Origin: Lachnospiraceae bacterium
Lineage (GTDB): Bacteria > Bacillota > Clostridia > Lachnospirales > Lachnospiraceae
DNA: 64,000 bases
Assembly: GCA_029012365.1 (NCBI GenBank)
Contig: JAQXLY010000063.1
Coordinates: 5,139-69,138, forward strand
Direction: 5' to 3'
Position numbers and translations under genes: made by a program. A model generated the notes under the pieces. That model was not told the origin of the DNA and ran no database searches. It saw only the letters and a list, made by a program, of their open reading frames with translations. This document shows positions 37,577-54,029 of this stretch, piece by piece (positions within the stretch are counted from its first letter, which is position 1; each line of letters begins with the position of its first letter).

Positions 37577-37581
37577 AGGCA

Positions 37582-39470: not shown

Positions 39471-41062
39471 AGCTATTAATCGGTATTCGTTTGAAGTCTT
39501 TATTCTATAACATGAAAAAGTCGTTCGGCGGAAAGAAAAAAGGGATGGGGGCACTGGTTGCCGTTATAATGCTGTTTCTTTTGTTTTCCGTAGAGATGAT
39601 GCTGTTCGGCGGCTGGGATATGTTATCTGCTTATTTAGAAACGGATTTTGCATGGCTGTATTTTGCATTGGCAGGACTTCTTGCCTTTGCGTTAGGTATT
39701 TTCGGTACGGTGTTTACGACCCAGAGCCAGATGTATCAGGCAAAGGATAATGAATTGCTGCTCGCCATGCCGATAAAGCCGGGAAATATTGTGGGCAGCC
39801 GTGTCATTGTACTGTATTTGATGACATTTGTTTTCATTGCGGTTGTAATGCTGCCGGCCGGGGTGGTGTATTGCCTGAAATTCGGTGTGTCGGTATCGTT
39901 TTTGGCTGTTTTCCTGATGATGATGGTGTTAATTAGTCTGCTTACTCAGGCGGTGACCTGCCTGCTTGGCTGGGTGCTGCACTTTTTACTTGCCGGATTC
40001 CGTCACAAGGCGATTATTGCAACAATATTTATGACAGCGGTTATGATTTTGTATTTTGTCGGCATTAATAAGGTTGAGACGTTGATGATATTACTGGTGG
40101 AAAACGGTGGTAAGATAGCTTCGGCAATTCAGAGCTTTGCATGGCCTTTTTATGCGATTGGCGTTTCATGTCTCGGAGACTGGGGACAGTTTATTTTACT
40201 GGTGCTTCTTTGCATCGGTGCATTCGGAATCGTAACGGTGATACTAAATGCAACCTTTGTAAAGGCGATGCTTGCAGGCGGGAAGTCGAAGCGTGCGGTA
40301 AAACAGAAGCGTGACAGCAGGGTTCGCTCTGCGGAAGGAACGATTTGTAAGAAAGAAGCAAAGCGTTTTTTTACAAGTACGACCTATCTTGTGAATATCG
40401 GTATGGGACTTTTTATGATTGTAGCCTTTGTGGGAGCGGGAATTATGTTAAAGGAAAAGCTGCTTTCGGTAATGACTCAGATATTTGCCGAAGAAACACA
40501 GAAATTTGTGCCGGTATTTTTGATTGGCGGTATGGGGCTTTTAGCTGCCATGACACCGATTTCGGCACCGTCTGTCTCACTGGAGGGAAAACATATCTGG
40601 ATTTTACGCTCGATGCCGGTCAGTGGGGTACAGGTACTGAAGGCGAAGTTTAGGTTTCATTGCGTGGCAACGGTGCCGCTTAGTGCTATCGGTACGATTG
40701 TGTTAGGCTTTGTATATGGGCTCACGGTGCCTGAAATTGTTGCCGCAACGATAGGTACAGTCTTGCTGTTTGTTTTATGCGGCGTTTTGGGACTTGTTTT
40801 CAATATGTGTTTTCCTCGTCTTGACTGGCCTAATGAGGCAACAGCGTGCAAACAGTCCATGGCTGTTTTCTTTGCCATTTTTGGAATGATGTTTGTCAGT
40901 CTTGCTTATGTACTGCTTTATTTTGCAGGCTCAGAACTGCTTGGCGGAACGGCAGAGGGTGTATGGGCAATTCTGCTGGTAGATGTTCTTTTTGCAATTA
41001 TTACTTACCTGTGCTATCTTTTAATGACGAAGTGGGGCGGCAAAAAGTTTGAGACGCTGTAA
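39467..41062 (+). CDS. ABC transporter permease (large polytopic, ABC-2-like exporter component)
   Basis: 531-aa ORF with ~12 hydrophobic segments. Its ATGA start overlaps the ATPase gene's stop. Confidence 0.7.
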   Translation: MKLLIGIRLKSLFYNMKKSFGGKKKGMGALVAVIMLFLLFSVEMMLFGGWDMLSAYLETDFAWLYFALAGLLAFALGIFGTVFTTQSQMYQAKDNELLLAMPIKPGNIVGSRVIVLYLMTFVFIAVVMLPAGVVYCLKFGVSVSFLAVFLMMMVLISLLTQAVTCLLGWVLHFLLAGFRHKAIIATIFMTAVMILYFVGINKVETLMILLVENGGKIASAIQSFAWPFYAIGVSCLGDWGQFILLVLLCIGAFGIVTVILNATFVKAMLAGGKSKRAVKQKRDSRVRSAEGTICKKEAKRFFTSTTYLVNIGMGLFMIVAFVGAGIMLKEKLLSVMTQIFAEETQKFVPVFLIGGMGLLAAMTPISAPSVSLEGKHIWILRSMPVSGVQVLKAKFRFHCVATVPLSAIGTIVLGFVYGLTVPEIVAATIGTVLLFVLCGVLGLVFNMCFPRLDWPNEATACKQSMAVFFAIFGMMFVSLAYVLLYFAGSELLGGTAEGVWAILLVDVLFAIITYLCYLLMTKWGGKKFETL

Positions 41063-41121
41063 AATATAATAACAAAATTTGTAACGTTTTGCGTTTACGT
41101 GTATCTAACTGTCAAAAGGAC

Positions 41122-41347
41122 ATGAAGCAGTGGAGATACAAATCGGTAAACGCAAAGCGTTTTTTTGTAATGTGAAAGTGATATTGTTGTATCTGGTCAT
41201 CTATGGTCATTTATTTCATAGAACCGAGAATAAACGACAGCGCATTGTTATTATGGCAGTAACGGTTGATTTATGCAGTACATATGCCATTGTTTGCTTT
41301 TGTTTCGGGAATGTTTTTAAAGACAAGAGGATCCATTGAGATATAAG
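41122..41347 (+). pseudogene. frameshifted 5' remnant of an acyltransferase-3 family gene
   Basis: Three frames carry consecutive pieces: MKQWRYKS..., then FFCNVKVILLYLVIYGHLF, then HMPLFAFVSGMFLK followed by a stop. Full-length family members are ~330-380 aa. Confidence 0.55.
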
Positions 41348-41396
41348 GAAATACGCTTACAGCAAATAGAGTTGTCAATAGTTTAGCAATAAAAAC

Positions 41397-41432
41397 CTTC
41401 CCTGTGCTTTGACGAGAAAGGGAAGTTTTTTT
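41397..41432 (+). terminator. rho-independent terminator
   Basis: Stem cttccct/agggaag with a 15-nt loop, followed by TTTTTTT. Confidence 0.7.
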
Positions 41433-41652
41433 CTATTGTCTAAGGTCAACCACTCTGTGGCGAGTGCCAAAAGTTCATATCGAACGGTAGAATTGTGCTA
41501 TTTCGAAAAAAGTGCTTTTCTTTTTCCATAGGTTGTGGTATCATATATATTTAGCGGAGATATATTCCGAGACTACTGAAAAGCATGACGGAAAACGGCG
41601 TGTTTTTCAGTTGTTTCGGCCATCTCCGCAAAACGACAAAAGGAGATTTAAA

Positions 41653-43740
41653 ATGGCGTACAAGAGTTTTTCAATGGAACTTGCAGGCAGAACTCTGACT
41701 GTAGATATCGGCAGAGTTGCCGCACAGGCAAACGGTGCAGCTTTCATGCATTATGGTGACACAACGGTGCTTTCCACCGCTACGGCTTCCGAGAAGCCGC
41801 GTGATGGGATTGATTTCTTCCCGTTAAGCGTAGAATACGAGGAAAAGTTATACGCAGTCGGTAAGATTCCGGGGGGGTTCAACCGCAGAGAGGGTAAGGC
41901 TTCTGAAAATGCTATCCTTACTTCCCGTGTCATTGATCGTCCGATGCGTCCGTTATTCCCGAAGGATTACAGAAACGATGTAACCTTAAACAACATGGTA
42001 ATGTCCGTAGACCCGGAGTGCAGCCCGGAGTTAACCGCCATGCTCGGTTCCGCAATCGCAGTAGCAATTTCCGATATTCCGTTTGATGGTCCGTGTGCTA
42101 CTACACAGGTCGGACTGATTGACGGAGAGTTTGTTTTTAATCCGAATTCCACACAGAATAAGGTTTCCGACTTGAAGCTTACCGTGGCTTCTACAAGAGA
42201 CAAGGTTATTATGATTGAAGCCGGTGCAAACGAAGTACCGGAGGCAAAGATGATTGAGGCTATTTATGCTGCTCACGAGATTAACCAGCAGGTAATTGCG
42301 TTTATCGATAAAATTGTTGCGGAGTGCGGTAAGGCAAAGCATGAGTATACCAGCTGTGCGGTTCCGGAGGAGTTGTTCGCGGCAATTAAGGAGCTTGTTC
42401 CGCCGGCAGAGATGGAAGAGGCAGTGTTTACCGACGAGAAGCAGAAGCGCGAGGAGAATATCCGTCAGATTACGGCAAGATTGGAAGAGGCTTTTGCGGA
42501 GAACGAAGAGTGGCTTGCAGTGCTCGGAGAAGCAATCTACCAGTATCAGAAGAAGACCGTTCGTAAGATGATTTTGAAGGATCACAAGCGTCCGGACGGC
42601 AGAGAGCTTACCCAGATTCGTAAGCTGGCTGCAGAGGTTGATATTATTCCGCGTGTACACGGTTCTGCTATGTTTACCAGAGGTCAGACACAGATTTGTA
42701 ATGTATGTACGTTAGCTCCGCTTTCCGATGCACAGAAGTTAGATGGACTTGATGAGAACGAAGTTTCCAAGCGTTATATGCACCACTACAATTTCCCGGC
42801 TTACTCTGTAGGTGAGACAAAGGTTTCCAGAGGTCCGGGACGTCGTGAAATCGGTCACGGTGCACTTGCTGAGAGAGCACTTCTTCCGGTACTTCCTCCG
42901 GAGGATGTTTTCCCGTACGCAATCCGTACCGTATCCGAGACCTTTGAGTCCAACGGTTCTACCTCTATGGCTTCTACCTGTGCGTCCTGTATGTCTCTAA
43001 TGGCAGCAGGTGTTCCGATTCGTAAGATGGTTGCGGGTATTTCCTGTGGTCTTGTGACCGGTGAGACCGATGATGATTATGTATTGTTAACTGATATTCA
43101 GGGTCTTGAGGACTTCTTTGGTGATATGGACTTTAAGGTGACCGGTACAGATGCAGGTATTACCGCTATTCAGATGGATATTAAGATTCACGGTCTGACC
43201 AGAGCGATTGTGGAAGGTGCGATTGCAAGATGCCGCGAAGCAAGAATGTACATTATGGAAAATTGCATGAAGCCGGCAATCGCTGAACCGAGAGCTGAGG
43301 TGAGCAAGTATGCACCGAAGATAATCCAGATTCAGATTGACCCGGCAAAGATCGGTGATGTAGTTGGTCAGAGAGGTAAGACTATCAATGCGATTATCGA
43401 AGAGACCGGCGTTAAGATTGATATTACCGATGACGGTGCTGTTTCCATCTGTGGTACCGATCCGGCAGGTATGCAGCGTGCAGTTGACCTGATTCAGATT
43501 ATTGTGACCGATTTTGAGGAAGGTCAGGTACTTGAGGGTAAGGTTGTCAGCATTAAAGAGTTTGGTGCTTTTCTTGAGTTTGCACCGGGCAAGGAGGCAA
43601 TGGTTCACATCTCTAAGATTTCTAAGGAGCGTATCAATCACGTAGAAGATGTTCTTACTCTTGGTGATGTGGTAAAGGCAGTATGTCTCGGTAAGGACAA
43701 GATGGGAAGAATCAGCTTCAGCATTAAGGATGTAAAATAA
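41653..43740 (+). CDS. pnp: polyribonucleotide nucleotidyltransferase (PNPase)
   Basis: Two RNase PH domains, a KH domain (GDVVGQRGKTINAI) and an S1 domain (GKVVSIKEFGAFLEF). Start set at the ATG at 41653 behind AAAGGAG; the 47-codon upstream extension is unsupported. Confidence 0.95.
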   Translation: MAYKSFSMELAGRTLTVDIGRVAAQANGAAFMHYGDTTVLSTATASEKPRDGIDFFPLSVEYEEKLYAVGKIPGGFNRREGKASENAILTSRVIDRPMRPLFPKDYRNDVTLNNMVMSVDPECSPELTAMLGSAIAVAISDIPFDGPCATTQVGLIDGEFVFNPNSTQNKVSDLKLTVASTRDKVIMIEAGANEVPEAKMIEAIYAAHEINQQVIAFIDKIVAECGKAKHEYTSCAVPEELFAAIKELVPPAEMEEAVFTDEKQKREENIRQITARLEEAFAENEEWLAVLGEAIYQYQKKTVRKMILKDHKRPDGRELTQIRKLAAEVDIIPRVHGSAMFTRGQTQICNVCTLAPLSDAQKLDGLDENEVSKRYMHHYNFPAYSVGETKVSRGPGRREIGHGALAERALLPVLPPEDVFPYAIRTVSETFESNGSTSMASTCASCMSLMAAGVPIRKMVAGISCGLVTGETDDDYVLLTDIQGLEDFFGDMDFKVTGTDAGITAIQMDIKIHGLTRAIVEGAIARCREARMYIMENCMKPAIAEPRAEVSKYAPKIIQIQIDPAKIGDVVGQRGKTINAIIEETGVKIDITDDGAVSICGTDPAGMQRAVDLIQIIVTDFEEGQVLEGKVVSIKEFGAFLEFAPGKEAMVHISKISKERINHVEDVLTLGDVVKAVCLGKDKMGRISFSIKDVK

Positions 43741-43746
43741 AGGACC

Positions 43747-43839
43747 GCTCTTTCGCACAAGAGGGCTTTTAACTGGTCGGAAAATGAAAAGAAACATTTC
43801 ATTTTCCGACTTTTGTTTCGCCCTTATGTGCGAAAGAGC
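43747..43839 (+). terminator. nested double hairpin containing the pnp terminator
   Basis: Inner 14-bp perfect stem gtcggaaaatgaaa/tttcattttccgac (43776-43810), followed by TTTTGTTT. It is enclosed by a 20-nt outer stem gctctttcgcacaagagggc/gcccttatgtgcgaaagagc, paired at 19 of 20 positions. Confidence 0.7.
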
Positions 43840-43939
43840 CGGTGTGAATACAAGGTAGGAAATTTGCTACAATGAGGTCGGTGGTGAATTAGAATTTATA
43901 AGAACAGTTAGAGAAACTTGAATTTGACGGAGGGTAAGT

Positions 43940-44338
43940 ATGATTTTCTATGATATAACAGAAGAAGATAAAGCATTGATAGAAATTGCATTATCCAAAA
44001 TAGACAAATATTTTGATAGTCAAAAGTATAACCATACAGTAGGAGCAGCAATTAGATGTAAAAACGGCAACATATATTCAGGTGTGAATTGTGATGGGAT
44101 ACATGGTTCTTGCGCGGAATATATCACTATGGGTATTGCAATTTCCGAAGGTGAACGAGATTTCGACACTATTGTAGCGGTCCATAAAGATTTTCCCAAT
44201 AAAGTAATTGCACCATGTGGAAATTGTAGACAAATGCTAATAGAGTATTGCCCAGATATTAAGGTTATTCTTAATGATTATGAAAATAATTTAGTTAAAG
44301 TTGGCATCAAGGACTTATTGCCATTTGCGTGTTTATAG
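43940..44338 (+). CDS. cytidine-deaminase-fold protein, blasticidin-S deaminase (Bsr/BSD)-like
   Basis: 132 aa with HTVGAAIRCKNGNIYSGVN...CAE...DFDTIVAV...PCGNCRQ. Zinc ligands and spacing match what I recall of Bsr/BSD. GGAGGG RBS. Confidence 0.75.
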   Translation: MIFYDITEEDKALIEIALSKIDKYFDSQKYNHTVGAAIRCKNGNIYSGVNCDGIHGSCAEYITMGIAISEGERDFDTIVAVHKDFPNKVIAPCGNCRQMLIEYCPDIKVILNDYENNLVKVGIKDLLPFACL

Positions 44339-44442
44339 TATTGTCAAATGTGAAGTTGTCGCATAGAAAATATATTTCATAGGTCTGGGTGCGATGCAGG
44401 TATTGCTGGTTTGCAGGTATTATAGAAATTATACAAAATAGG

Positions 44443-44472
44443 TTGTATTTATCCTAGAAAAAGTGATATACT
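44443..44472 (+). promoter_or_regulatory. possible promoter for phd-doc (and perhaps the downstream cassette)
   Basis: TTGTAT, 18 nt, TATACT with a TGa extended -10. Confidence 0.4.
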
Positions 44473-44500
44473 ATCCATATAAGATTATGGAGGTGTTCAC

Positions 44501-44743
44501 ATGACAATAGATACAAATACAATGGTTTCGATTACGGAAGCAAATCAGAACTTTTCAAAAGTTGCAAGATTAGTAGATGAGCTCGGCTCAGTTGTTATAC
44601 TTAAGAATAATGCACCAAGATATTTGGTAATCGATTTTAGCAAAGCAGATGAAAGCGCTGTGGCCAAGAATGAAGATGTGCTCGAGATTTCAAGGAGATT
44701 ACTTGCACAGAATAAAGAAGCTTACGAGGTGCTTGCTGAATGA
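44501..44743 (+). CDS. type II toxin-antitoxin system Phd/YefM family antitoxin
   Basis: 80 aa. MVSITEANQNFSKVARLVDELGSVVILKNNAPRYLVI is typical of Phd/YefM. Its ATGA overlaps the downstream doc. Confidence 0.8.
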   Translation: MTIDTNTMVSITEANQNFSKVARLVDELGSVVILKNNAPRYLVIDFSKADESAVAKNEDVLEISRRLLAQNKEAYEVLAE

Positions 44744-44988
44744 AAAGATTGAGTAAAGAGCAAATTTTGATGCTCCATTCACAGCTCATAGAACAAACTG
44801 GCGGAACCCTTGGGGTAAGAGACTTCAATTTGTTGGAGTCGGCTATTGAGACACCGTTTCAAGTGTTTGATGGAGAAGAGTTATATCCAACGATACAAGC
44901 GAAAGGTACGCGTCTTGGCTATGGATTAATAAAAAATCATTGTATGTTGGATGGTAATAAACGAATAGGAACACAGGTGATTATTTGA
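44740..44988 (+). CDS. Doc/Fic family toxin, C-terminally truncated (82 aa; likely inactive remnant)
   Basis: The Doc-type Fic motif HCMLDGNKR is present, but the ORF stops 8 codons later. Doc proteins are normally ~120-135 aa. Confidence 0.7.
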   Translation: MKRLSKEQILMLHSQLIEQTGGTLGVRDFNLLESAIETPFQVFDGEELYPTIQAKGTRLGYGLIKNHCMLDGNKRIGTQVII

Positions 44989-45037
44989 ATTTACAGAATT
45001 GTTAAATTCCAATTTTTCGTGCAAAGGAGATGATGAA

Positions 45038-45733
45038 GTGCAATATACATCAATTGAAATAAATGAAATGTGTAAAAAAGCACTAGAGAGTATCGAAACA
45101 TTTTATCAACAAGATTTTATAAATTATAGAGGAAGAACGGCAGACACCAATCGGTTTTATACAGAAGTTGTTGCAGATTATGTTCTCAATAATATTGATT
45201 CATTTTTAAATAATATTCCCAGAATTACGCGGATGAAAGATTATGACCAGAAACACGATGGTTCATATCGTGAAGGCACAGGAAGAGATGAAGAAATCAT
45301 TGCTATAAAAATGTTCAGAAAAAGCCAGATGGATAATTGCACATATCCGTACATAGGAAAAATAATCGACTATCAGACTCCTTTGAAATTGAAAAGAACT
45401 GATGTGGCAGGTAAGATTGATTTACTATCATATGATGGGAAGGTACTAAGGATTCTAGAATTAAAGAAACCATCGAGTACGGAGTCGATGTTACGGTGTG
45501 TTTTAGAAGGATACACTTATTTAAAAACGGTTGATGAAAAGAAGTTGATTACTGATTTTGGTTTGCCATCAGAGACTATTGTGGAGGCAGCACCTTTTGT
45601 GTTTTGGAAAGCAAATCAGTGGATAGAATGGCAGGAAGATAGACCTGCATTGCATTCTCTTTGTCGAATACTAGGAATAAAACCTTATTTCATCAAAGAA
45701 GAGAATGACAGCTATACAATATTGGAGGGTTAG
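45038..45733 (+). CDS. hypothetical protein with a PD-(D/E)xK-like nuclease motif
   Basis: 231 aa from the GTG at 45038, 8 nt after AAGGAG. The core GKIDLLSYDGKVLRILELKKP fits a D...ExK arrangement, preceded by the acidic EEIIAIK. I recognise no family. Confidence 0.5.
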   Translation: MQYTSIEINEMCKKALESIETFYQQDFINYRGRTADTNRFYTEVVADYVLNNIDSFLNNIPRITRMKDYDQKHDGSYREGTGRDEEIIAIKMFRKSQMDNCTYPYIGKIIDYQTPLKLKRTDVAGKIDLLSYDGKVLRILELKKPSSTESMLRCVLEGYTYLKTVDEKKLITDFGLPSETIVEAAPFVFWKANQWIEWQEDRPALHSLCRILGIKPYFIKEENDSYTILEG

Positions 45734-45735
45734 TG

Positions 45736-46377
45736 ATGGAAAAGAATAAACTTGACAAAGAAATAATTTTAGGTGCTATTTTTGGAATAATTGCTATTAT
45801 AGCAATAATATGTGAGATGTCGCTTGGAGGTTTTTCAAAAGAGGCTATTGCCGGAGGAGTAAAAGATATTTCTGGAACGATAGTAGCTGTTCTTGTATTT
45901 ATCATTGCTGCAAGCGGAATTAGGAAGAAAAATGTAAAAGGGTTTGGTAATGTCTTTCGTACTGAAATGGATAAAGTAATTGCAAAATATGACCCGGCAA
46001 TTGTTGAAAACAAAGATGACAAAAAAGACAGCTTTTATCGTTGTGATATAGCATCAAAATTAGATTGTATTGGTGGTAATGCTTCGGGTGCATATCATTT
46101 GTTCTTTAGAGTAGATAATGAAAAAGAAGTAAAATCTATATCATTTAAGGTTACACAGACAGTATTTGGAGATTTTAAGGGAGAAGTTGCAGAATCAGTT
46201 ATTGCAAAGCTGCTTCTTATATACAGGGATTATATAGAGAAATCTTTTGTCAAAGGTGATGAAGTTGTAGTAGAGTTTAGCAAATCATTAAGTAGTGATG
46301 AGGAGGCTATTCTTTTGGCTAATATAGTTGACTGTGTATTGCTTGTATGCGTTGCAAAATACGGGGCAAAGAAATAA
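45736..46377 (+). CDS. hypothetical membrane protein (2 N-terminal TM helices plus a ~140-aa soluble domain)
   Basis: The ATG lies 3 nt after the upstream stop (a GTG at 45733 overlaps it). GGAGGG RBS sits inside the upstream gene. TM helices IILGAIFGIIAIIAIIC and GTIVAVLVFIIAASGI. Confidence 0.6.
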   Translation: MEKNKLDKEIILGAIFGIIAIIAIICEMSLGGFSKEAIAGGVKDISGTIVAVLVFIIAASGIRKKNVKGFGNVFRTEMDKVIAKYDPAIVENKDDKKDSFYRCDIASKLDCIGGNASGAYHLFFRVDNEKEVKSISFKVTQTVFGDFKGEVAESVIAKLLLIYRDYIEKSFVKGDEVVVEFSKSLSSDEEAILLANIVDCVLLVCVAKYGAKK

Positions 46378-47567
46378 TGAAGATTACTGTTCATAGAGGT
46401 CAAAACCAAATAGGTGGTTCTATTATAGAGGTTTCAACAGAATCAACTAGAGTGGTTTTTGATGTAGGTATTAATTTAGATGAACCAGAATGTGTGAAAA
46501 TTCCGGCTATCGAAGGATTGTTTCAAGGGGATCCGCTATATGATGCCGTTATAATATCACACTATCATTCTGACCATATTGGATTGCTTAACTATCTGCT
46601 TGGTGGAATTCCGATATATATTGGCAAACAAGCATTCTCTGTTGTTCAGGCAGCAAGTAGTTATACCAACCGTGAAATTATGTACGAGCCTCATTTGTTT
46701 GAGGAAAATGAAAGTATTGCGATTGGGGACTTGGCTATTTATCCGTATAGATGCGACCACAGTGCTTTGGATTCCTATATGTTCTTGATAACAGATGGGC
46801 AGAAAACAATTCTTTATACGGGGGATTTTAGAGCAAATGGTAGAATGGACTACCAGGAACTCTTGAATAAGTTACCTGCTGTAGATGCATTGATTGTCGA
46901 AGGAACTACACTAACAAGAGAGACTTATAAAAACAACATTGAGGAAGAAGAACTAGAAAATATTGCAATGTCTAAAATTAGAGATTATCCAGGACCTGTA
47001 TTTTTTATGACATCAGCAATGAATGTGGAGCGTATGGTTACTGCTTATAATATTGCACATAGAGATCATCGTTTGTTTTTGGAAGACCTTTATTCCGCAG
47101 AGATATTAAATGCTGTTGGTTTTAATACAGAAGAACGAAATGATATTAGAGTTTTTATGACTGGCGGGGATATGCAATATGAAATGCTACAAAAATATCC
47201 ATCAAGTAAAATTGGCAAGAAAGAAATATCTAAAACAAGATTTCTTATGTGTATAAGACCATCAATGAAAAATTATATAAGTAAGCTGAATGAATTAATG
47301 TCATTTGAGAATGGTATTTTGTTTTACAGTATGTGGAGAGGATATCAAGAGAAGGATGATATAAAGAATTTTTTAGATTATATGACTTCTTTAGGAGTTA
47401 GGATTCATGTATTACATACGAGTGGGCATGCAGATGTTGATACAATTGATAGGCTTATTAGGAAGGTATCTCCGGGGATGATTATTCCAGTTCATACGGA
47501 GAATCCAGGCTGGTATGAAAAGTATGATATTCCAGTTGAGTTGCATAATAATACGATAAACTTATAA
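46377..47567 (+). CDS. metallo-beta-lactamase fold hydrolase of the beta-CASP (RNase J / CPSF / SNM1-like) type
   Basis: TAATG start/stop overlap. Motifs in order: VFDVG, HYHSDH (HxHxDH), CDHS, TGDF, VEGT, HTSGHA and PVHTE, as in beta-CASP nucleases. Confidence 0.7.
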   Translation: MKITVHRGQNQIGGSIIEVSTESTRVVFDVGINLDEPECVKIPAIEGLFQGDPLYDAVIISHYHSDHIGLLNYLLGGIPIYIGKQAFSVVQAASSYTNREIMYEPHLFEENESIAIGDLAIYPYRCDHSALDSYMFLITDGQKTILYTGDFRANGRMDYQELLNKLPAVDALIVEGTTLTRETYKNNIEEEELENIAMSKIRDYPGPVFFMTSAMNVERMVTAYNIAHRDHRLFLEDLYSAEILNAVGFNTEERNDIRVFMTGGDMQYEMLQKYPSSKIGKKEISKTRFLMCIRPSMKNYISKLNELMSFENGILFYSMWRGYQEKDDIKNFLDYMTSLGVRIHVLHTSGHADVDTIDRLIRKVSPGMIIPVHTENPGWYEKYDIPVELHNNTINL

Positions 47568-47579
47568 AGGGGTGGCGTT

Positions 47580-47981
47580 GTGAAGGGAATGATAATAGTT
47601 GCACTTGTGATTATTGGCGTTATTGTGAGTGCGATATATACCTATTTGTTTCAACAAGTTTATACAGAGCGTTATGGCAGAAGAGGGTTGTCTTATGTTT
47701 TGGCAGCTATCTTGGCGACCGGTATAATGTGGTTCTCACTTGAATATGAAGTGCCAAGTGGATGGGAATATAAAGTGTCTTTAGCAATAATTATAGTATC
47801 GGCTCTGTTAAATCTGATCTGGATAATAAGAGGATTGCTTAAGCCGGATGTTCCTGTTGGAATGAAAATAAATGCTGCAGTTTCACAGATATTGTTGGTA
47901 ATAGGAATTGCAGGAATAATTTTTATAGCACTATTAGCTTTGTATGCTTTTGGTGGTGGGGGCAAGAGGAGGAAACGATAG
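47580..47981 (+). CDS. hypothetical small membrane protein (4 TM helices, basic GGGGKRRKR tail)
   Basis: GTG start 12 nt after the MBL gene's stop, with AAGGGGTGG upstream. Four clear hydrophobic segments. Confidence 0.6.
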   Translation: MKGMIIVALVIIGVIVSAIYTYLFQQVYTERYGRRGLSYVLAAILATGIMWFSLEYEVPSGWEYKVSLAIIIVSALLNLIWIIRGLLKPDVPVGMKINAAVSQILLVIGIAGIIFIALLALYAFGGGGKRRKR

Positions 47982-48088
47982 TGCTAGCCCGTTAAATTGT
48001 TATTTTATCGTTACAAAGGCAACAACAAATTTCAGTAAGCCGGAGAGTTTAACTGAGAGATGAATTTGAATTTGTATTGGAGAATCAG

Positions 48089-48619
48089 ATGAATAAATAT
48101 GTTGCGCTTTTAAGAGGAATTAATATCAGCGGAAAAAATAGAATAGATATGTCGGAATTGAAATCAGAACTTGAGGCAACAGGTTTTAGGGAGGTATCTG
48201 CTTATTTGAATAGCGGAAACATCGTGTTTGTTTCTGAAATGACTAATTGTAAACCGGTAATAGAGAACATTATTTTGCAAAAATTCAAGTTGGATATTCC
48301 TGTTTATCTAATTGAAATGGAAGAACTAAAAGATATACTGGCGCATTCGCCGATATGGTGGGATTCCGGGAGCAAAGATAAATACGATAATCTGATTTTT
48401 ATTTTGTCTTCCGATTCTGCCGAAGATATATCTGCTATTATCGGAAATCCATCTGACAATCTTGAAAGGGTTGAAATATACAAAAGTGTTATTTTCTGGA
48501 CATTTGAACGAAGTACATACCAAAAGTGTCACTGGTGGAAGAAGACTGCTGAAAACGGTATTGCTGAAAGACTCACTATTAGAACGGCAAATACCGTTAA
48601 GAAGATATTACAAAGATAA
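48089..48619 (+). CDS. DUF1697 domain-containing protein
   Basis: MNKYVALLRGINISGKNRIDMSELKSELEATGFREVSAYLNSGNIVF is typical of DUF1697. ATG at 48089 behind GGAGAA. Confidence 0.8.
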   Translation: MNKYVALLRGINISGKNRIDMSELKSELEATGFREVSAYLNSGNIVFVSEMTNCKPVIENIILQKFKLDIPVYLIEMEELKDILAHSPIWWDSGSKDKYDNLIFILSSDSAEDISAIIGNPSDNLERVEIYKSVIFWTFERSTYQKCHWWKKTAENGIAERLTIRTANTVKKILQR

Positions 48620-48709
48620 CTTTCAGTCTCAAAGCGAGATTGAAAGCGCGCGCTTATTTGAAATTTCACATTTGTTATAGATAAAATAGTTCAGAAAGGT
48701 TTTGTTTGT

Positions 48710-50092
48710 ATGGATCGAATTGAGTTAATCAGTCTACCCAACGGCATCCGGGTGGTATTAGAGCCTATGCCGTATGTAAAAACGGCAGCGTTTGGCGTTT
48801 TTGTAGGTGTCGGCTCCGTTTGTGAGACAAAAGAAAATAACGGTATCTCTCATATGATTGAACATATGCTTTTTAAGGGGACGGAAGACAGGAGTGCCAA
48901 GGAACTGGCAGATATTACGGCAAGGCTCGGTGATACGGTAAATGCCTATACCGGCAAGGAGTATACTGCATATTACGGAGTGACTATTGCTGAGGAACTG
49001 CCACGACTTATCGAAGTTCTTGCCGATATGTTGCAGCATTCCGTGTTTGACAGTAGAGCTCTTTCCAAGGAAAAGGGAGTTATCTGCGAAGAGATTGATA
49101 TGTATAATAATTCTCCGGATGATCTGGTTCACGAACTGGCACAGAAACGGGCATGGCAGGGGCATCCGCTCAGCTTTCAGATTTCCGGTACAAAGGGCGT
49201 GGTACGGGCAATGACAAGGGAAAAGATTCTGACCTACTACCGGAAGGAATACCGGCCGGAGCGGATGGTGCTTTCCGTCGCGGGAGCGTTTGATAAAAAC
49301 GAGATAATGGAGAGTCTGGAAAAGACGTTCTGCCCGGCAGGACAAAGTGTTTCGGCAAGCTTGAAAAAAGAAGGTCTTATGCCGGATGGCCGCTATCAAA
49401 AGTATTACGGCAATCAGGCAAAGAAGAGAGCCGGGCAGGAGGGTGTGCCGGTACAGGACAGGCAGCCGGCAGAGTATACGAGAAGCTTTTCCAAATCCGT
49501 GCAGGATACATCCCAGCTCCACATGAATCTGGTATTTCCGGGGATTTCCTATATGGATGAAAAACGGCATATAGCTACTGTATTCCAGTCGATATTCGGT
49601 GGCAGCAACAATTCTTTATTGTTTCAAAAGATTCGTGAGGAAGAAGGACTTGCTTACGCAGTATATTCCTATGGATGTCCGTATGCAAGGGAAGGACTGG
49701 TACATATTGATGCGGTAAGTGCTCCGAACCAGGCAGAAGCAGTATTTGACTACACTATGGAGGTATGTGAAAGTCTTCGGGAAACGGTAGTTTCGGAAGA
49801 AACTCTGGCAACTCATAAGGCGCTGATTCGTACCGAAGCGATTTTGTCAAAGGAAAGTGTGCAAAGCCGTATGGAAGGCAACGGAAGAAGCGTGCTTCTT
49901 CGCGGCAGGGTGATTCCTCAGGAGGAAGAACTGGTACGTATCGAGGCGGTAACGGCAGAGGAGGTAAAACAGTTTGCAAGACAGGTGCTTTGCACAGAAA
50001 AAATGAGTATTTGCCTGGTAGGTGAGATGGGAAGTGCCGGAAGGAGACTTCGGAGGAAGTTTGAACGTCTGGGAGGAAGAGCTATAAAATAA
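48710..50092 (+). CDS. M16 family (pitrilysin/insulinase-like) metallopeptidase
   Basis: Inverted zincin motif HMIEHMLFKGT, downstream E in VICEEI, two-domain length of 460 aa. Confidence 0.85.
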   Translation: MDRIELISLPNGIRVVLEPMPYVKTAAFGVFVGVGSVCETKENNGISHMIEHMLFKGTEDRSAKELADITARLGDTVNAYTGKEYTAYYGVTIAEELPRLIEVLADMLQHSVFDSRALSKEKGVICEEIDMYNNSPDDLVHELAQKRAWQGHPLSFQISGTKGVVRAMTREKILTYYRKEYRPERMVLSVAGAFDKNEIMESLEKTFCPAGQSVSASLKKEGLMPDGRYQKYYGNQAKKRAGQEGVPVQDRQPAEYTRSFSKSVQDTSQLHMNLVFPGISYMDEKRHIATVFQSIFGGSNNSLLFQKIREEEGLAYAVYSYGCPYAREGLVHIDAVSAPNQAEAVFDYTMEVCESLRETVVSEETLATHKALIRTEAILSKESVQSRMEGNGRSVLLRGRVIPQEEELVRIEAVTAEEVKQFARQVLCTEKMSICLVGEMGSAGRRLRRKFERLGGRAIK

Positions 50093-52544: not shown

Positions 52545-53669
52545 ATGGATATGAGAAGGTATTTAAAAAAAAGCGGATGTGTGGCAATGCTTGTCTTTTG
52601 CGGTGTGCTTTGTATTGCCGGCTGCGGAAAGAAGGATGAGACAATGTCAGAACCGACAAAGCAAGTAGAGGCTACCCCTGAACCTACAGCAGAACCGACA
52701 GTCACGCCGGAACCGACGGCTACTCCTGGGTCGACAGCAACGCCGGAACCGACAGCTACGCCGGAGCCTACACCTACACCGGTGCCTGAGTATGCAAAGG
52801 ATGCATGGTTTGGTTTTGGAAACGGAGCTGATATGGAGAGTGTTGCAAATGAGGTTGAGATAAAGGCTCCTGCTGCGTATCAGTATAAAAAGAAGGACGT
52901 TACGTATGGGGAAATTGTGAAGACCAAGTATTATTCTACAACCTGTGAAAGAGATAAAAATGTAATTGTCCTGCTTCCTGCCGGGTATACGGAAGAAAAG
53001 AAATACCCGGTTACTTACATATTACACGGCGTATTCGGCGATGAGAAGTCAATGATTGGAGACGGAAACAGTGGTATCCGTATTATGGTAGGAAATATGA
53101 TTGAAAAGGGGATAGCTGAGGATATGATTTTAGTATTTCCGTATATGTATTCCAGTAAAACGCAGCCTGCTTGTACGGCAATTGACCATGAGAATATGGC
53201 AGCCTATGACAATTTTGTAAATGATATGTCAGATGATTTGATGCCGTTTATTGAGGAAAATTATTCCGTTGCTACCGGACGTGAGAATACTGCAGTGGTA
53301 GGCTTTTCCATGGGAGGACGCGAGTCTCTTTGTATCGGCTTTTCTCGTCCGGATTTGTTCGGATATGTAGGAGCGATTGCTCCGGCGCCTGGTCTTACTC
53401 CGGGAAAAGATATGTACCTGGACCATATCGGGACATTTAAGGAGGAGGAGCTTGCATTTGCAAACGAGAGCCCGTATCTGCTTATGATTTGCAGCGGAGA
53501 TAAGGACAGTGTGGTTGGTGAATTTCCGAAGAGCTATCACAATATCTTAACGAAAAATGAGGTGAATCATATCTGGTGGGAGATTCCGGGTTCTGACCAC
53601 GGAGACCCTGCAATTTCAAGCGGAATTTATAATTTCTGTAAGTCAGTTTTTAAAAATTTACAGGAATAA
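52545..53669 (+). CDS. alpha/beta hydrolase ('putative esterase' / esterase-D-like) lipoprotein
   Basis: Lipobox IAGC, a T/P/E-rich repeat linker, and a catalytic nucleophile elbow GFSMGG. Confidence 0.75.
   Translation: MDMRRYLKKSGCVAMLVFCGVLCIAGCGKKDETMSEPTKQVEATPEPTAEPTVTPEPTATPGSTATPEPTATPEPTPTPVPEYAKDAWFGFGNGADMESVANEVEIKAPAAYQYKKKDVTYGEIVKTKYYSTTCERDKNVIVLLPAGYTEEKKYPVTYILHGVFGDEKSMIGDGNSGIRIMVGNMIEKGIAEDMILVFPYMYSSKTQPACTAIDHENMAAYDNFVNDMSDDLMPFIEENYSVATGRENTAVVGFSMGGRESLCIGFSRPDLFGYVGAIAPAPGLTPGKDMYLDHIGTFKEEELAFANESPYLLMICSGDKDSVVGEFPKSYHNILTKNEVNHIWWEIPGSDHGDPAISSGIYNFCKSVFKNLQE
52681..52800 (+). repeat. imperfect tandem coding repeats (TPEPTA-type linker)
   Basis: EATPEPTAEPTVTPEPTATPGSTATPEPTATPEPTPTPVPE, with repeated ccggaaccgac units in the DNA. 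Confidence 0.7.
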
Positions 53670-53701
53670 TGCAAATAATGCATAAAATGTGAAAAAAAGG
53701 A

Positions 53702-53730
53702 TTGACAACTTAAAATTGAGACGATATAAT
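53702..53730 (+). promoter_or_regulatory. strong sigma-A-type promoter upstream of the leader ORF and ABC exporter genes
   Basis: TTGACA, 17 nt, TATAAT; both hexamers match the consensus exactly. Confidence 0.65.
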
Positions 53731-53794
53731 ACAACTGTTACATAAAAACGAAATCGGTGGATTCCGAAATATAAAAGAAAGAGAGGTAAGAACT

Positions 53795-53896
53795 ATGATA
53801 AACAAAGTAACAAACATAATGCATGTAAAAATTGAATATGGTTATATGAGTTTTGTGCAGAGAACATATGGTATTACCTCATCTTACCCGCAATAG
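53795..53896 (+). CDS. 33-codon leader ORF (MINKVTNIMHVKIEYGYMSFVQRTYGITSSYPQ), not in the supplied ORF track
   Basis: ATG 7 nt after AGAGAGGTAAG. Lies between a consensus promoter and an intrinsic terminator, upstream of the ABC exporter pair. Confidence 0.45.
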   Translation: MINKVTNIMHVKIEYGYMSFVQRTYGITSSYPQ

Positions 53897-53931
53897 AATG
53901 TCGTTCGGACAGTAAAATATGCGTATAAATG

Positions 53932-53966
53932 AGAACCCGTAGTGTGATGTGCTACGGGTTCTTTTA
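53932..53966 (+). terminator. intrinsic terminator/attenuator between the leader ORF and the ABC exporter genes
   Basis: 11-bp stem agaacccgtag/ctacgggttct followed by TTT, ~65 nt upstream of the ABC gene's ATG. Confidence 0.65.
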
Positions 53967-54029
53967 CGTGCATGCAAAGCTCAAATGAATTCTGCTGTTA
54001 GGGGAAGATGAAGGTATTTAGGAGGAGTT

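What the first reader, a model, noticed from the sequence alone, without database searches (positions are those of the whole stretch)
43860..48700. AT-rich ~4.8-kb accessory island between pnp and the M16 peptidase gene
Spot G+C counts on single 60-nt lines give 30% at 45001-45060 and 20% at 47221-47280. The flanks give 48% at 42601-42660 (pnp) and 53% at 49201-49260 (M16 peptidase). In Bacillus-type gene order, rpsO-pnp is followed within a gene or two by an M16 processing peptidase (mlpA/ymxG), with tepA and spoIIIE/ftsK further on; that backbone order is kept here. The eight AT-rich genes between them (Bsr-like deaminase, phd, truncated doc, four-gene cassette, DUF1697) therefore look horizontally acquired. 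I see no integrase, transposase or convincing flanking direct repeats, so the insertion mechanism is unclear.
Basis: partly seen in the sequence, partly recalled or inferred. Interest (0 to 1): 0.7.

Follow-up and report, generated by a model that had tools for sequence, protein, structure and literature searches.

The report
Mosaic AT-rich accessory gene hotspot
The AT-rich stretch between pnp and the M16 peptidase gene is a real, horizontally acquired patchwork of gene modules that differs even between close strains of an uncultured gut Lachnospiraceae bacterium, and its largest module is a recently mobile, uncharacterised four-gene cassette with two predicted nucleases that may be a new anti-phage defence system.

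Summary
The pnp-to-M16 interval (43741-48709) is 35.0% G+C against 44.9% for the rest of the window, about 8 SD below any other 5-kb stretch. GC3 of its genes is 21-33%, against 40-54% elsewhere.

- The interval is an integrase-less hotspot. In 15 related species it is empty (110-190 bp) or holds at least eight unrelated AT-rich cargo sets.
- It was not built by one insertion. There are at least four modules: a blasticidin-S-deaminase-like cda, phd plus a truncated doc, a four-gene cassette, and a DUF1697 gene.
- Conspecific metagenome contigs carry pnp-cda-M16 or pnp-doc'-methyltransferase-M16.
- Cargo is 99-100% identical between lineages whose pnp differs by about 7%. The break lies inside the pnp terminator hairpin.
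- The 3.0-kb cassette is 99.2% identical to cargo on integrase/relaxase-bearing elements elsewhere.

The cassette encodes a predicted PD-(D/E)xK-like nuclease, a 2-TM protein, a beta-CASP MBL nuclease and a 4-TM protein. Its nuclease pair is conserved (66 of 86 loci; one fusion protein). It has no PADLOC match, apart from a marginal Cas4 hit to A, and no literature match was found. A defence role is plausible but untested.

As an island this is ordinary. The cassette and a recurring boundary motif are the interesting parts.

The parts
41653..43740 (+). pnp (polynucleotide phosphorylase), the conserved left flank of the hotspot
   Evidence: 695 aa, 94-99% identical in close relatives. The exact protein is NCBI MDD6037003.1, 'MAG: Lachnospiraceae bacterium'. 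G+C 47.7%.
43744..43843 (+). Two-tier hairpin with a T-run: the pnp intrinsic terminator and the left recombination boundary of the island
   Evidence: Inverted repeats I3 and I10 and terminator-like sites. RNA fold -58.8 kcal/mol, z = -10.2. Conserved in the clade with filled intervals. Divergence from L169, L040 and L170 stops at 43796-43820, inside it.
43821..44437 (+). Module 1 (cda module), identical across diverged lineages
   Evidence: 0 mismatches in 617 nt against L169. One mismatch over 43797-44585 against L170 and L174. The last 400 nt of pnp differ at about 7%. Absent from L040.
43940..44338 (+). cda: 132-aa tetrameric-type cytidine deaminase, closest to blasticidin-S deaminase
   Evidence: PF00383, E 7.7e-9. 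NCBIfam cytidine deaminase models, all below cut-off. Best PDB sequence hit is blasticidin-S deaminase 1wn5, E 4.8e-17. No PADLOC hit.
44501..44743 (+). phd/yefM-type antitoxin gene (80 aa), apparently intact
   Evidence: PF02604, E 2e-5, below the gathering score. phrog_2194, E 1.4e-24. 75% identical to the Phd of the full-length phd-doc pair in L013. Overlaps doc by 4 nt.
44740..44988 (+). doc': truncated Fic/Doc toxin gene (82 of about 125 codons); probably an inactive remnant
   Evidence: PF02661, E 4e-14, covering profile positions 2-86 of 93. The full-length 125-aa Doc is in L013. The same truncated copy, 98.8% identical, survives in L040 without phd. NCBI has only seven protein accession numbers between pnp and M16 for eight ORFs.
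44985..48005 (+). Module 3: the 3.0-kb mobile unit carrying the A-B-C-D operon
   Evidence: 45004-48005 is 99.2-99.3% identical to L178-L181. The leader 44985-45022 matches L178 5931-5968. L167 is 100% identical to 44708-48030. An 8-nt GTTAAATT sits at both ends (45000-45007 and 47994-48001), read directly from the sequence.
45038..45733 (+). A: 231-aa soluble protein with a PD-(D/E)xK-like nuclease core; no Pfam family
   Evidence: 2783 homologs, all unnamed. Invariant E43, D128 (GKIDLL), E141-x-K143 and MLRCVLEGYTY. AF2 model pLDDT 94.8. Foldseek gives only weak hits, mostly PD-(D/E)xK nucleases. PADLOC Cas4 hit at E 0.006.
45733..46377 (+). B: 214-aa protein with an N-terminal 2-TM hairpin and a fast-evolving cytoplasmic alpha/beta domain
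   Evidence: Only 20 homologs found. The TM hairpin is conserved and the C-terminal domain is variable. AF2 pLDDT is above 90 for most of residues 71-210. No structural match at E<=1e-3. Hydropathy. Its start overlaps the stop of A.
46377..47567 (+). C: 396-aa beta-CASP metallo-beta-lactamase-fold nuclease
   Evidence: Lactamase_B and Lactamase_B_2 plus RMMBL. RNase J and aCPSF1 NCBIfam models, below cut-off. PDB hits: EF2904 (2az4), RNase J, CPSF73, IntS11. HxHxDH, DHS, TGDF, HTSGHA and PVHTE align with RNase J1.
47580..47981 (+). D: 133-aa protein with four TM segments and a polybasic C-terminus
   Evidence: Hydropathy. Weak homology to the 131-aa gene following the MBL in L081, E 1e-6. No family hit.
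48089..48619 (+). Module 4: DUF1697 gene (176 aa from the ATG; the mechanical ORF starts at TTG 48077)
   Evidence: PF08002, E 1.7e-34. PDB 2hiy, hypothetical protein, E 2.5e-18. Never next to the cassette elsewhere. Independent contigs L182 and L183 confirm D-DUF1697-M16.
48618..48709 (+). Conserved right flank (M16 leader and ribosome-binding site); the common right junction of all island variants
   Evidence: Homology with L040 and with L169-L173 resumes at 48618. In more distant relatives only the last 25 nt or so before the M16 ATG are conserved.
48710..50092 (+). M16 (pitrilysin-family) peptidase gene, the conserved right flank
   Evidence: PF00675 and PF05193. NCBI MDD6037011.1. 76-90% identical in close relatives.
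44981..45004 (+). Left copy of an imperfect 24-nt direct repeat (20/24) at the doc'/cassette junction. Its partner is at 48654-48677 in the right flank.
   Evidence: Family D5. Both copies lie at or within about 40 nt of junctions defined independently by comparison with L040. My rough estimate of the chance of such placement is about 0.02.
48654..48677 (+). Right copy of the 24-nt direct repeat, inside the conserved M16 leader
43918..43928 (+). Boundary/leader motif TTGAATTTGAC before cda. Other copies are at 44985 (creating the doc' stop codon) and 48066 (before DUF1697). A related TTGAAATTTCAC is at 48657.
   Evidence: The same motif precedes unrelated cargo genes in L040, L005 and L178.

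Best explanation
The trough is a strain-variable, horizontally acquired, mosaic accessory-gene array in an integrase-less hotspot. The hotspot lies between the pnp terminator hairpin and the M16 peptidase leader, in an uncultured gut Lachnospiraceae bacterium.

Shown:
- The flanks are conserved core genes.
- The interval is empty or holds unrelated AT-rich cargo in related species.
- Within the species complex at least three arrangements coexist.
- Cargo segments are 99-100% identical between lineages whose core genes differ by 7-15%.

Inferred history:
- Modules entered one at a time next to the M16 leader: cda, then phd-doc, then a cassette that cut off the 3' end of doc.
- They were then exchanged between lineages by homologous recombination anchored in the flanks. 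The left crossover is in the pnp terminator.
- They were eroded by deletions.

The latest and largest module is a 3.0-kb unit, probably captured from an integrative mobilisable element. It encodes a translationally coupled operon: A (PD-(D/E)xK-like nuclease), B (2-TM protein with a variable cytoplasmic domain), C (beta-CASP MBL nuclease) and D (4-TM protein).

Inferred function, about 0.4 confidence: a membrane-associated defence system. The variable membrane partners, or a KAP NTPase in other versions, would sense invasion and license the A-C nuclease pair to degrade foreign nucleic acid.

The other genes are unrelated passengers: cda is probably a nucleoside or nucleoside-antibiotic deaminase, phd-doc' is a dead toxin-antitoxin remnant, and DUF1697 is of unknown function.
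For: Composition: 35.0% against 44.9% G+C, about 8 sd; GC3 21-33% against 40-54%.

Hotspot:
- Of the 15 relatives with 76-90% identical M16 whose contig spans the interval, four have an empty interval.
- The other eleven carry at least eight different cargo sets at 33-39% G+C.
- None shares the window's cda, A-D or DUF1697.

Strain-level states:
- L169 and L171-L173 are pnp-cda-M16, with a roughly 90-nt remnant of the L040 methyltransferase 3' end.
- L040 is pnp-doc'-methyltransferase-M16.
- L167, L170, L174, L182 and L183 reproduce every junction of the window's arrangement from independent assemblies.

Recent exchange:
- 0 mismatches in 617 nt (43821-44437) against L169, compared with about 7% in the adjacent pnp 3' end.
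- The last mismatch lies inside the hairpin.

Donor:
- 45004-48005 is 99.2-99.3% identical to L178-L181.
- There it lies beside two tyrosine integrases, MobA/MobL, Y2_Tnp and TnpV.

The cassette is a unit:
- 66 of 86 loci with an A homolog have the MBL gene adjacent. Most of the rest are cut by contig ends.
- P0151 is an A-C fusion protein.
- The genes overlap or abut.
- Catalytic motifs are intact in A and C.

Defence-like traits:
- Neighbours include Wadjet plus BrxC, type I HsdR plus a HEC-05-like protein, McrBC, mad3, nSTAND3, and an integrase/primase/capsid element.
- B is swapped for a KAP NTPase in some versions.
- B and D evolve fast while A and C stay 55-60% identical.
- The cassette is AT-richer than its flanks in 22 of 25 loci.
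Against: - No recombinase, tRNA or clean att duplication is present in the window. The junction repeats are short and imperfect: 20/24 nt and 8 nt. The insertion chemistry is therefore not established.
- The window itself and most of the comparison sequences are MAG or metagenome contigs.
- The order of events (gain versus loss) is inferred from only three arrangements.
- The defence role has no experimental support and no match to PADLOC 2.0 beyond a marginal Cas4 hit to A (E 0.006).
- Several cassette loci sit between housekeeping genes: after a tRNA-U5 methyltransferase gene in three genomes, and between a peptidase and alr/valS in one.
- A homologs are essentially absent from phage and plasmid collections.
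- The relatives' cargo at this hotspot is not defence-like.
Confidence: 0.85

Rival explanations
1. A classical genomic island: one integrase-mediated insertion of a single 4.8-kb element, whose integrase was later lost.
For: All eight genes are co-directional and uniformly AT-rich. The same cassette sits next to integrases in L178-L181. An imperfect 24-nt direct repeat brackets the cassette plus DUF1697.
Against: Modules have different distributions and different divergence: cda is 100% identical, doc' 98%, and the cassette is absent from the L169 and L040 lineages. Homology to the integrase-borne copy stops exactly at 45004/48005 and excludes cda, phd, doc and DUF1697. There is no integrase, tRNA or island-wide att repeat.
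Confidence: 0.04
2. Vertical inheritance with differential loss: the array is ancestral to the clade and relatives simply lost it. The AT-richness would reflect gene function, not foreign origin.
For: Deletions clearly occurred. L169 keeps a methyltransferase 3' remnant and L040 lost cda plus phd.
Against: Cargo is identical between lineages with about 7% pnp divergence. The cassette is 99.2% identical in an unrelated mobile context. Relatives hold unrelated cargo rather than remnants. GC3 is 15-25 points below every other gene in the window.
Confidence: 0.04
3. Assembly or binning artefact: foreign AT-rich reads were chimerically joined between pnp and M16 in a MAG.
For: The source is a MAG contig. 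AT-rich repeats can mis-join.
Against: Independent assemblies from other samples cover every junction: pnp-cda-phd (L170, L174), phd-doc'-A-B-C-D (L167), and D-DUF1697-M16 (L182, L183).
Confidence: 0.02
4. The A-B-C-D cassette is not a defence system. It is an accessory nucleic-acid-processing or repair/uptake module, for example membrane-associated RNA or DNA turnover, that happens to be mobile.
For: C is closest to RNase J/CPSF-type enzymes and carries the RMMBL 'RNA specificity' domain. Some relatives of C are fused to PHP/DnaE fragments. Several loci are in housekeeping neighbourhoods, three of them directly after a TRAM/tRNA-U5 methyltransferase gene. There is no PADLOC hit.
Against: It shows strain-level presence/absence, carriage on integrase/relaxase elements, repeated adjacency to RM, Wadjet, McrBC and MADS genes, partner swapping (B against KAP NTPase), and fast-evolving membrane components.
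Confidence: 0.35
5. The interval is an integron-like cassette array. Cassettes would be inserted and excised at a short core (TGAATTTGAC/TTGAAATTTCAC) by a site-specific recombinase encoded elsewhere.
For: The motif lies at the 5' edge of unrelated cargo genes: cda, the A unit, DUF1697, the L040 methyltransferase, an L005 ORF, and two sites in L178. A related copy is in the M16 leader. I estimate about 0.04 such hits expected in these leaders against 4-5 seen. All cassettes are co-directional. A different 19-nt repeat, AAATTCCRATTTTCGGTGC, delimits sub-cassettes next to an integrase in L178.
Against: There is no IntI-type gene, and no attC-like imperfect palindromes were noticed in the intergenic regions; the repeat finder reported none, and no dedicated attC model was available. 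The motif could simply be a shared translation leader from a common donor pool. It is not enriched upstream of divergent A homologs (2 of 69). Several junctions (44437, 43910) are plain deletions without the motif.
Confidence: 0.1

Closest known systems
Integrase-less horizontal-transfer hotspots between conserved core genes (Oliveira, Touchon and Rocha 2017, from my own knowledge; the E. coli defence-island hotspots of PMC10121019, listed)
   Same: Conserved flanking core genes, variable gene content among relatives, compositionally deviant cargo, no mobility genes in the interval, and signs of recombination in the flanks.
   Different: This locus, pnp terminator to M16 leader in Lachnospiraceae, did not turn up as a described hotspot in the one literature search aimed at it. 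The cargo is mostly not recognisable defence genes.
phd-doc type II toxin-antitoxin module of phage P1
   Same: Phd/YefM-type antitoxin gene overlapping a Fic/Doc gene by 4 nt. The Fic motif region (HxxxDGNKR) is retained.
   Different: Doc lacks its last 43 residues or so. An almost identical doc' persists in L040 without phd, so it is probably non-toxic.
Blasticidin-S deaminase (BSD/Bsr) and tetrameric cytidine deaminases
   Same: 132 aa, zinc-binding CDA fold. The best solved relative by sequence is BSD (E 4.8e-17).
   Different: The substrate is untested. The protein scores below the cut-off of every NCBIfam cytidine deaminase equivalog.
Beta-CASP MBL nucleases: RNase J, CPSF73/IntS11, the type VII CRISPR nuclease Cas14, and the structural-genomics protein EF2904 (2az4)
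   Same: MBL motifs 1-4, beta-CASP motifs B and C, and the RMMBL domain.
   Different: About 400 aa with no extra C-terminal domain. Obligately paired with a PD-(D/E)xK-like protein, which is not known for any of these. No CRISPR context.
Trypsin-MBL effector module of Hachiman, AVAST and Lamassu (HamM; PMC12799240)
   Same: An MBL-fold nuclease used as a defence effector, with modular association to different sensors.
   Different: HamM is ComEC-like rather than beta-CASP, and is activated by a fused trypsin-like protease. There is no protease here. The partner is a second nuclease plus membrane proteins.
Membrane-anchored sensor plus nuclease defence systems (Kiwa, Zorya) and KAP-NTPase systems (Tmn); from my own knowledge
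   Same: Small multi-TM proteins encoded with soluble nucleic-acid-targeting effectors. KAP NTPase appears as an alternative partner.
   Different: No sequence similarity to any of them (no PADLOC hits). The analogy is functional only.
Integron cassette arrays and CALINs
   Same: Co-directional, compact, mostly promoterless cargo genes with a short recurring motif at cassette boundaries, next to a fixed site.
   Different: No IntI and no attC structures. To my knowledge integrons are not known in Firmicutes.

Membership tests
Integrase-less HGT hotspot / variable accessory region | Flanking genes are conserved, syntenic core genes | tested here: met
   pnp and M16 flank the interval in the 15 close relatives whose contig spans it and in many of the 80 loci overall.
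Integrase-less HGT hotspot / variable accessory region | Gene content of the interval differs among related genomes, including empty sites | tested here: met
   Four empty and eleven filled, with at least eight cargo sets. Three arrangements within the species complex.
Integrase-less HGT hotspot / variable accessory region | Cargo is compositionally atypical for the host | tested here: met
   35.0% against 44.9% G+C; GC3 21-33% against 40-54%. Relatives' cargo is 33-39% against 47-50%.
Integrase-less HGT hotspot / variable accessory region | Evidence of recombinational exchange through the flanks | tested here: met
   Abrupt step from about 7% to 0% divergence at 43796-43820. Mosaic identity along the region.
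Classical integrative genomic island / prophage / ICE | Integrase or other recombinase within the island | tested here: not met
   No such ORF on either strand. No integrase or transposase family among the eight proteins.
Classical integrative genomic island / prophage / ICE | Insertion next to a tRNA/tmRNA gene, with flanking att direct repeats | tested here: not met
   The only tRNA is at 17680-17762. There is only a 20/24-nt imperfect repeat, and it brackets part of the island.
Defence island | Several recognised defence systems clustered together | tested here: not met
   PADLOC hits only for the doc fragment (PDC-S23/M59B) and a marginal Cas4 hit for A. Relatives' cargo has none apart from a methyltransferase resembling mad2. 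PADLOC 2.0 dates from 2023, so newer systems were not tested.
Type II toxin-antitoxin phd-doc | Antitoxin gene immediately upstream of, and overlapping, the toxin gene | tested here: met
   phd 44501-44743 and doc' 44740-44988, with an ATGA overlap.
Type II toxin-antitoxin phd-doc | Full-length Doc (about 125 aa) with a complete Fic fold | tested here: not met
   82 aa; the Pfam match covers positions 2-86 of 93. The L013 homolog is 125 aa.
Beta-CASP metallo-beta-lactamase nucleases | MBL motifs (D, HxHxDH, H, D) plus beta-CASP motifs A-C | tested here: met
   HYHSDH, CDHS, YTGDF, HTSGHA and PVHTE align with RNase J1 and EF2904. RMMBL domain present. Motif A (IVEGT) was assigned by eye only.
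RNase J (equivalog) | Score above the NCBIfam cut-off; about 555 aa with a C-terminal dimerisation domain | tested here: not met
   72.8 bits against a cut-off of 400 (TIGR00649). 396 aa.
PD-(D/E)xK nuclease superfamily (protein A) | Conserved D...(D/E)xK catalytic triad on the alpha-beta-beta-beta-alpha-beta core | tested here: inconclusive
   Invariant D128 and E141-L-K143 on consecutive strands of a confident model. Foldseek hits are mostly PD-(D/E)xK nucleases, but only one reaches E<=1e-3 (Bacillus phage G Gp54, uncharacterised; E 8.7e-4). No Pfam or PDB sequence hit.
Known anti-phage defence systems (PADLOC 2.0) for the A-B-C-D cassette | Significant match of the component proteins to models of a named or candidate system | tested here: not met
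   No hits for B, C or D; A matches Cas4 at E 0.006 only. Full-text searches found no description of such a pair.
Trypsin-MBL defence effector module | ComEC-like MBL nuclease encoded upstream of a trypsin-like protease fusion | tested here: not met
   No protease in or next to the cassette. C is beta-CASP type. Module features taken from PMC12799240.
Integron / CALIN | IntI integrase and attC recombination sites | tested here: not met
   No integrase. No attC-like imperfect palindromes were noticed in the intergenic regions by the repeat finder. No dedicated attC model was available.

The most novel reading that the evidence does not exclude
The core pair A (PD-(D/E)xK-like) plus C (beta-CASP MBL nuclease) defines a new, widespread family of membrane-associated anti-phage/anti-plasmid defence systems. 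It comes with an interchangeable partner (a 2-TM protein or a KAP NTPase) and a small 4-TM protein. I found about 2,800 A homologs, mainly in gut Clostridia. The window would then show a freshly captured copy. A bolder add-on, which I put at roughly 0.1 on its own, is that the cassettes of this hotspot are shuffled at a short conserved core (TGAATTTGAC-like) by a recombinase acting in trans. That would be an integron-like cassette system in Firmicutes.
Probability: 0.35. Interest if true: 0.7.

Novelty: new member of a known kind. Interest (0 to 1): 0.5.

Why it matters
As an island it is a textbook case: an AT-rich, strain-variable hotspot. It is documented unusually cleanly from metagenomes alone, with empty sites, alternative cargo, deletion derivatives, a sharp divergence step that places one crossover in the pnp terminator, and a named donor context.

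The added value lies in the cargo. The A-C nuclease pair is a large protein family with no annotation. A, B and D have no Pfam family. The pair behaves like a mobile defence module yet is missing from PADLOC 2.0 (2023), the only defence catalogue I could test it against. If it protects against phages or plasmids, it adds a beta-CASP/PD-(D/E)xK two-nuclease architecture to bacterial immunity in gut Firmicutes, which are under-sampled by the mostly E. coli-centred screens.

The recurring boundary motif, if it is a recombination core, would point to an unrecognised cassette-exchange mechanism.

Tried and rejected
- **Rfam.** Nothing in the island or the pnp 3' element at gathering threshold over the whole window. 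The insert-bearing version in L001 gave only a chance-level hit.
- **Sequence searches of A and B.** The A profile found nothing in PDB. Foldseek of the B model found nothing at E<=1e-3.
- **Phage and plasmid origin of A.** One distant hit (34% to the query, 37% to L083's A) in IMG/VR, none in GenBank phages, and one partial hit on a Butyrivibrio megaplasmid. A phage-borne origin is not supported.
- **Literature.** No description found of a beta-CASP/MBL plus PD-(D/E)xK or KAP defence pair, nor of a pnp-adjacent hotspot. The known trypsin-MBL module is a different MBL clade.
- **Integron core sites.** I rejected reading GTTAAAT at the cassette ends as an integron core site (GTTRRRY). By my estimate that degenerate 7-mer is expected several times per 5 kb of AT-rich DNA, and there is no attC or IntI.
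- **Single-island model.** Rejected once the modules showed different distributions.
- **TTGAATTT motif.** Its count over the whole window equals chance (7 against 7.4). Only its placement at cassette boundaries is unusual. It is not enriched upstream of divergent A homologs.
- **DUF1697, cda, phd and doc.** None is ever linked to the cassette elsewhere.
- **Not done.** I did not use the third homologous-protein search, and I did not model C.

Full report
**1. Observation**

A proper profile shows one continuous trough. Every 500-nt window from 43750 to 48750 is 32-38% G+C, while the flanks are 45-50%. It is the lowest 2-kb stretch of the whole 64 kb.

The interval from the pnp stop to the M16 start (43741-48709) is 35.0% G+C, against 44.9% for the rest. 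The 982 other windows of the same length have mean 44.6%, sd 1.2 and minimum 41.8%. Third-codon-position G+C of the island ORFs is 21-33%. It is 40-54% for every other ORF of at least 100 aa. The trough is real and far beyond chance.

**2. Gene content**

All genes are on the + strand:

| Gene | Coordinates | Identification |
|---|---|---|
| pnp | 41653-43740 | Polynucleotide phosphorylase |
| Terminator | 43744-43843 | Two-tier hairpin, -58.8 kcal/mol, z = -10 |
| cda | 43940-44338 | Best solved relative is blasticidin-S deaminase, E 4.8e-17 |
| phd | 44501-44743 | Phd/YefM-type antitoxin |
| doc' | 44740-44988 | Doc cut at 82 of about 125 residues; full-length homolog in L013 |
| A | 45038-45733 | PD-(D/E)xK-like, no Pfam family |
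| B | 45733-46377 | 2-TM protein |
| C | 46377-47567 | Beta-CASP MBL nuclease |
| D | 47580-47981 | 4-TM protein |
| DUF1697 | 48089-48619 | Unknown function |
| M16 peptidase | 48710-50092 | Pitrilysin family |

Downstream, the backbone runs OAH sulfhydrylase, a ClpP/TepA-like gene, an esterase, two ABC exporters, BacA and FtsK/SpoIIIE.

There is no integrase, transposase or tRNA in or beside the interval.

The exact pnp, C and M16 proteins belong to an NCBI MAG labelled 'Lachnospiraceae bacterium' (MDD6037003.1, MDD6037008.1 and MDD6037011.1).

**3. The interval is a hotspot**

A scan of one genome per species with the M16 protein returned 80 loci. In 15 of the relatives with 76-90% identical M16 and 90-99% identical pnp the contig spans the interval, and its length ranges from 110 bp to 1.7 kb.

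- Four are empty and have normal G+C.
- The others hold unrelated cargo at 33-39% G+C:
  - a 187-aa protein;
  - a 91-93-aa protein alone, or with a GNAT acetyltransferase, or with an AAA_33 kinase;
  - a 106-aa protein;
  - a 4Fe-4S protein;
  - one or two membrane proteins;
  - a truncated doc plus a methyltransferase.
- None carries the window's cda, A-D or DUF1697.
- None of this cargo hits PADLOC, except that the methyltransferase resembles mad2.

So the site is a general accessory-gene hotspot, not a demonstrated defence island. Across the wider clade the conserved borders are the pnp terminator on the left and only about 25 nt of M16 leader on the right.

**4. The island is a mosaic, not one insertion**

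Exact-protein look-ups recovered conspecific or near-conspecific metagenome contigs.

- *Window-type arrangement.* L170 and L174 (pnp-cda-phd start), L167 (phd end through D, 100% identical), and L182 and L183 (D-DUF1697-M16) confirm every junction from independent assemblies. This rules out a chimera.
- *cda-only arrangement.* L169 and L171-L173 carry only pnp-cda-M16. Their homology to the window ends at 44437 and resumes at 48618. The 90 nt or so between are the 3' end of the methyltransferase gene seen in L040.
- *L040 arrangement.* L040 carries pnp-doc'-methyltransferase-M16. It lacks 43911-44721 (cda plus phd), shares 44722-44997 (doc', 98%), and rejoins at 48618.
- *Common ancestry.* L040 and L169 have the same pnp allele (identical mismatch pattern). 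They are therefore two different deletion derivatives of an array cda-phd-doc'-methyltransferase.
- *The window's state.* The window has A-B-C-D plus DUF1697 in place of the methyltransferase. All variants share the right junction at 48618.
- *Status of doc'.* L040 keeps doc' without phd, so the fragment is very probably non-toxic.

**5. Evidence for recent horizontal exchange**

Against L169 and L040, the last 400 nt of pnp differ at about 7%, mostly at third codon positions. The last mismatch is at 43820. From 43821 to 44437 there are no mismatches in 617 nt.

Against L170 and L174 there is one mismatch in 789 nt after 43796. The step lies inside the terminator hairpin. On the right side, M16 is only 84-87% identical.

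Cargo that is identical between lineages with diverged core genes means recent transfer. The crossover in the left flank fits homologous recombination.

**6. A donor for the cassette**

A protein at least 90% identical to C led to contigs L178-L181. Window 45004-48005 (3002 bp) is 99.2-99.3% identical to them. The preceding 19 nt (44985-45003) are also found in L178.

There the unit sits among the following genes, which together look like an integrative mobilisable element:
- a 324-aa tyrosine integrase;
- a DUF1016/YhcG nuclease;
- a 432-aa integrase;
- HTH regulators;
- a MobA/MobL relaxase;
- Y2_Tnp and TnpV;
- arsenic-resistance genes.

Homology stops at the unit's ends and excludes doc', DUF1697 and the rest.

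In the window the unit is bracketed by GTTAAATT (45000-45007 and 47994-48001). The larger segment 44998-48617 is bracketed by an imperfect 24-nt repeat (44981-45004 and 48654-48677, 20/24). These are suggestive but too short to define a mechanism.

**7. What the cassette is**

*Protein A*
- It has 2783 unnamed homologs of about 230 aa.
- Invariant E43, D128 (GKIDLL), E141-L-K143 and MLRCVLEGYTY form a PD-(D/E)xK-type pattern.
- The AF2 model is confident (pLDDT 94.8).
- It has no close structural relative. The weak Foldseek hits are mostly PD-(D/E)xK nucleases such as Can2, XisH, AF1548, the Lassa endonuclease, Hjc and FokI.

*Protein C*
- It is a complete beta-CASP MBL nuclease. HxHxDH, DHS, TGDF, HTSGHA and PVHTE align with RNase J1.
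- Its closest solved relative is the uncharacterised EF2904.

*Proteins B and D*
- B has a conserved 2-TM hairpin and a divergent, confidently modelled cytoplasmic domain with no structural match.
- D has four TM segments and a polybasic tail.

*Linkage of A and C*
- In 86 loci holding an A homolog, 66 have the MBL gene adjacent. Most exceptions are contig ends.
- The architectures are A-B-C(-D), KAP NTPase-A-C-D, A-KAP-C, C-A, and A-C with a short or a 1-kb spacer.
- One representative protein (P0151, 642 aa) is an A-C fusion.
- A and C stay 55-60% identical between versions, while B and D barely align.

*Genomic neighbourhoods of the cassette*
- Defence or mobile-element neighbours:
  - Wadjet plus BrxC;
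  - an integrase/D5-primase/capsid element;
  - type I HsdR plus a HEC-05-like protein;
  - McrBC, type I methyltransferases, nSTAND3, mad2/mad3 and DolB;
  - MobA/MobL.
- Plain housekeeping settings also occur.
- The cassette is AT-richer than its flanks in 22 of 25 loci.
- B, C and D have no PADLOC hit. I found no paper describing such a pair. The published MBL defence effectors are ComEC-like and protease-activated.

My reading, inferred and not shown, is a membrane-associated two-nuclease defence system. I put it at about 0.4 confidence, against about 0.35 for a non-defence nucleic-acid-processing role.

**8. Unexplained feature**

A motif (T/A)TGAATTT(G)AC sits at the 5' edge of unrelated cargo genes:
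- cda (43918);
- the A unit (44985, where its TGA makes the doc' stop codon);
- DUF1697 (48066);
- the L040 methyltransferase;
- an L005 ORF;
- two sites in L178.

A related TTGAAATTTCAC lies in the M16 leader. The window-wide count of TTGAATTT equals chance. Only the placement is unusual, and the motif is not a general property of A homologs. It may be a shared leader from a common donor pool, or a recombination core. I could not decide between these.

**9. Verdict**

The finding is correct, and its interpretation is supported with refinements. As an island it is a new example of a well-known kind. The interesting content is the recently mobile, uncharacterised A-C nuclease cassette and the boundary motif.

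Noticed in passing
window 43744-43843; L001 9100-9350 and the same region of L003, L005, L009 and L011: The pnp 3' hairpin is conserved across the clade. In several relatives the loop of the inner stem holds an extra structured-looking insert of about 110 nt (TAGTTTCACGGGAACCCG...). Rfam gives only a chance-level hit (STnc410, E 0.45).
   Followed up: partly
window 38757-41062: The ABC ATPase plus 531-aa permease pair between pfkB and pnp is present in L170 but absent from the L169/L171-L173 lineage. It is a second strain-variable segment, this one with normal G+C (45-47%).
   Followed up: partly
L001 11371-15584; L006 11386-18165; L002, L005, L007 and others: The M16-to-OAH-sulfhydrylase gap and the OAH-to-tepA gap are also variable in relatives (up to 4-7 kb), although both are short in the window (about 130 and 200 bp). 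The whole pnp-tepA stretch appears to contain several insertion hotspots.
   Followed up: no
L178 5931-8647 (also L179-L181): A 19-nt sequence AAATTCCRATTTTCGGTGC occurs three times in direct orientation: before a 324-aa tyrosine integrase, before a 168-aa gene, and before A. Relative to the window, integrase-DUF1016-168aa (2.7 kb) looks like an insertion into that site. This is a candidate att site for a small integrase-borne element.
   Followed up: partly
P0151, P0153, P0185, P0188, P0175 (representatives of the C family): Relatives of the MBL nuclease occur fused to A (P0151), to PHP/DNA-polymerase-III-alpha fragments (P0153, P0185, P0188), and to an AAA ATPase (P0175). Several others have unexplained N-terminal domains of about 200 aa.
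   Followed up: partly
L083 6615-8693; L175 7621-9693; L176 7493-9693: In three genomes the A-B-C cassette follows a TRAM/tRNA-(uracil-5)-methyltransferase gene directly, with a 4-nt overlap in L176. This may be another preferred insertion site or a functional link to RNA metabolism.
   Followed up: no
window 41000-41500, 37250-37750 and 53500-54000: Shorter G+C dips (35-38%) lie in intergenic or leader regions: upstream of pnp, upstream of pfkB, and between the esterase and the ABC exporter genes. They are much smaller than the island trough.
   Followed up: no
L013 17512-18128: A related species carries an intact phd-doc pair (80 and 125 aa; 75% and 62% identical to the window's copies) at a different locus, about 6 kb downstream of its M16-OAH genes.
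   Followed up: partly
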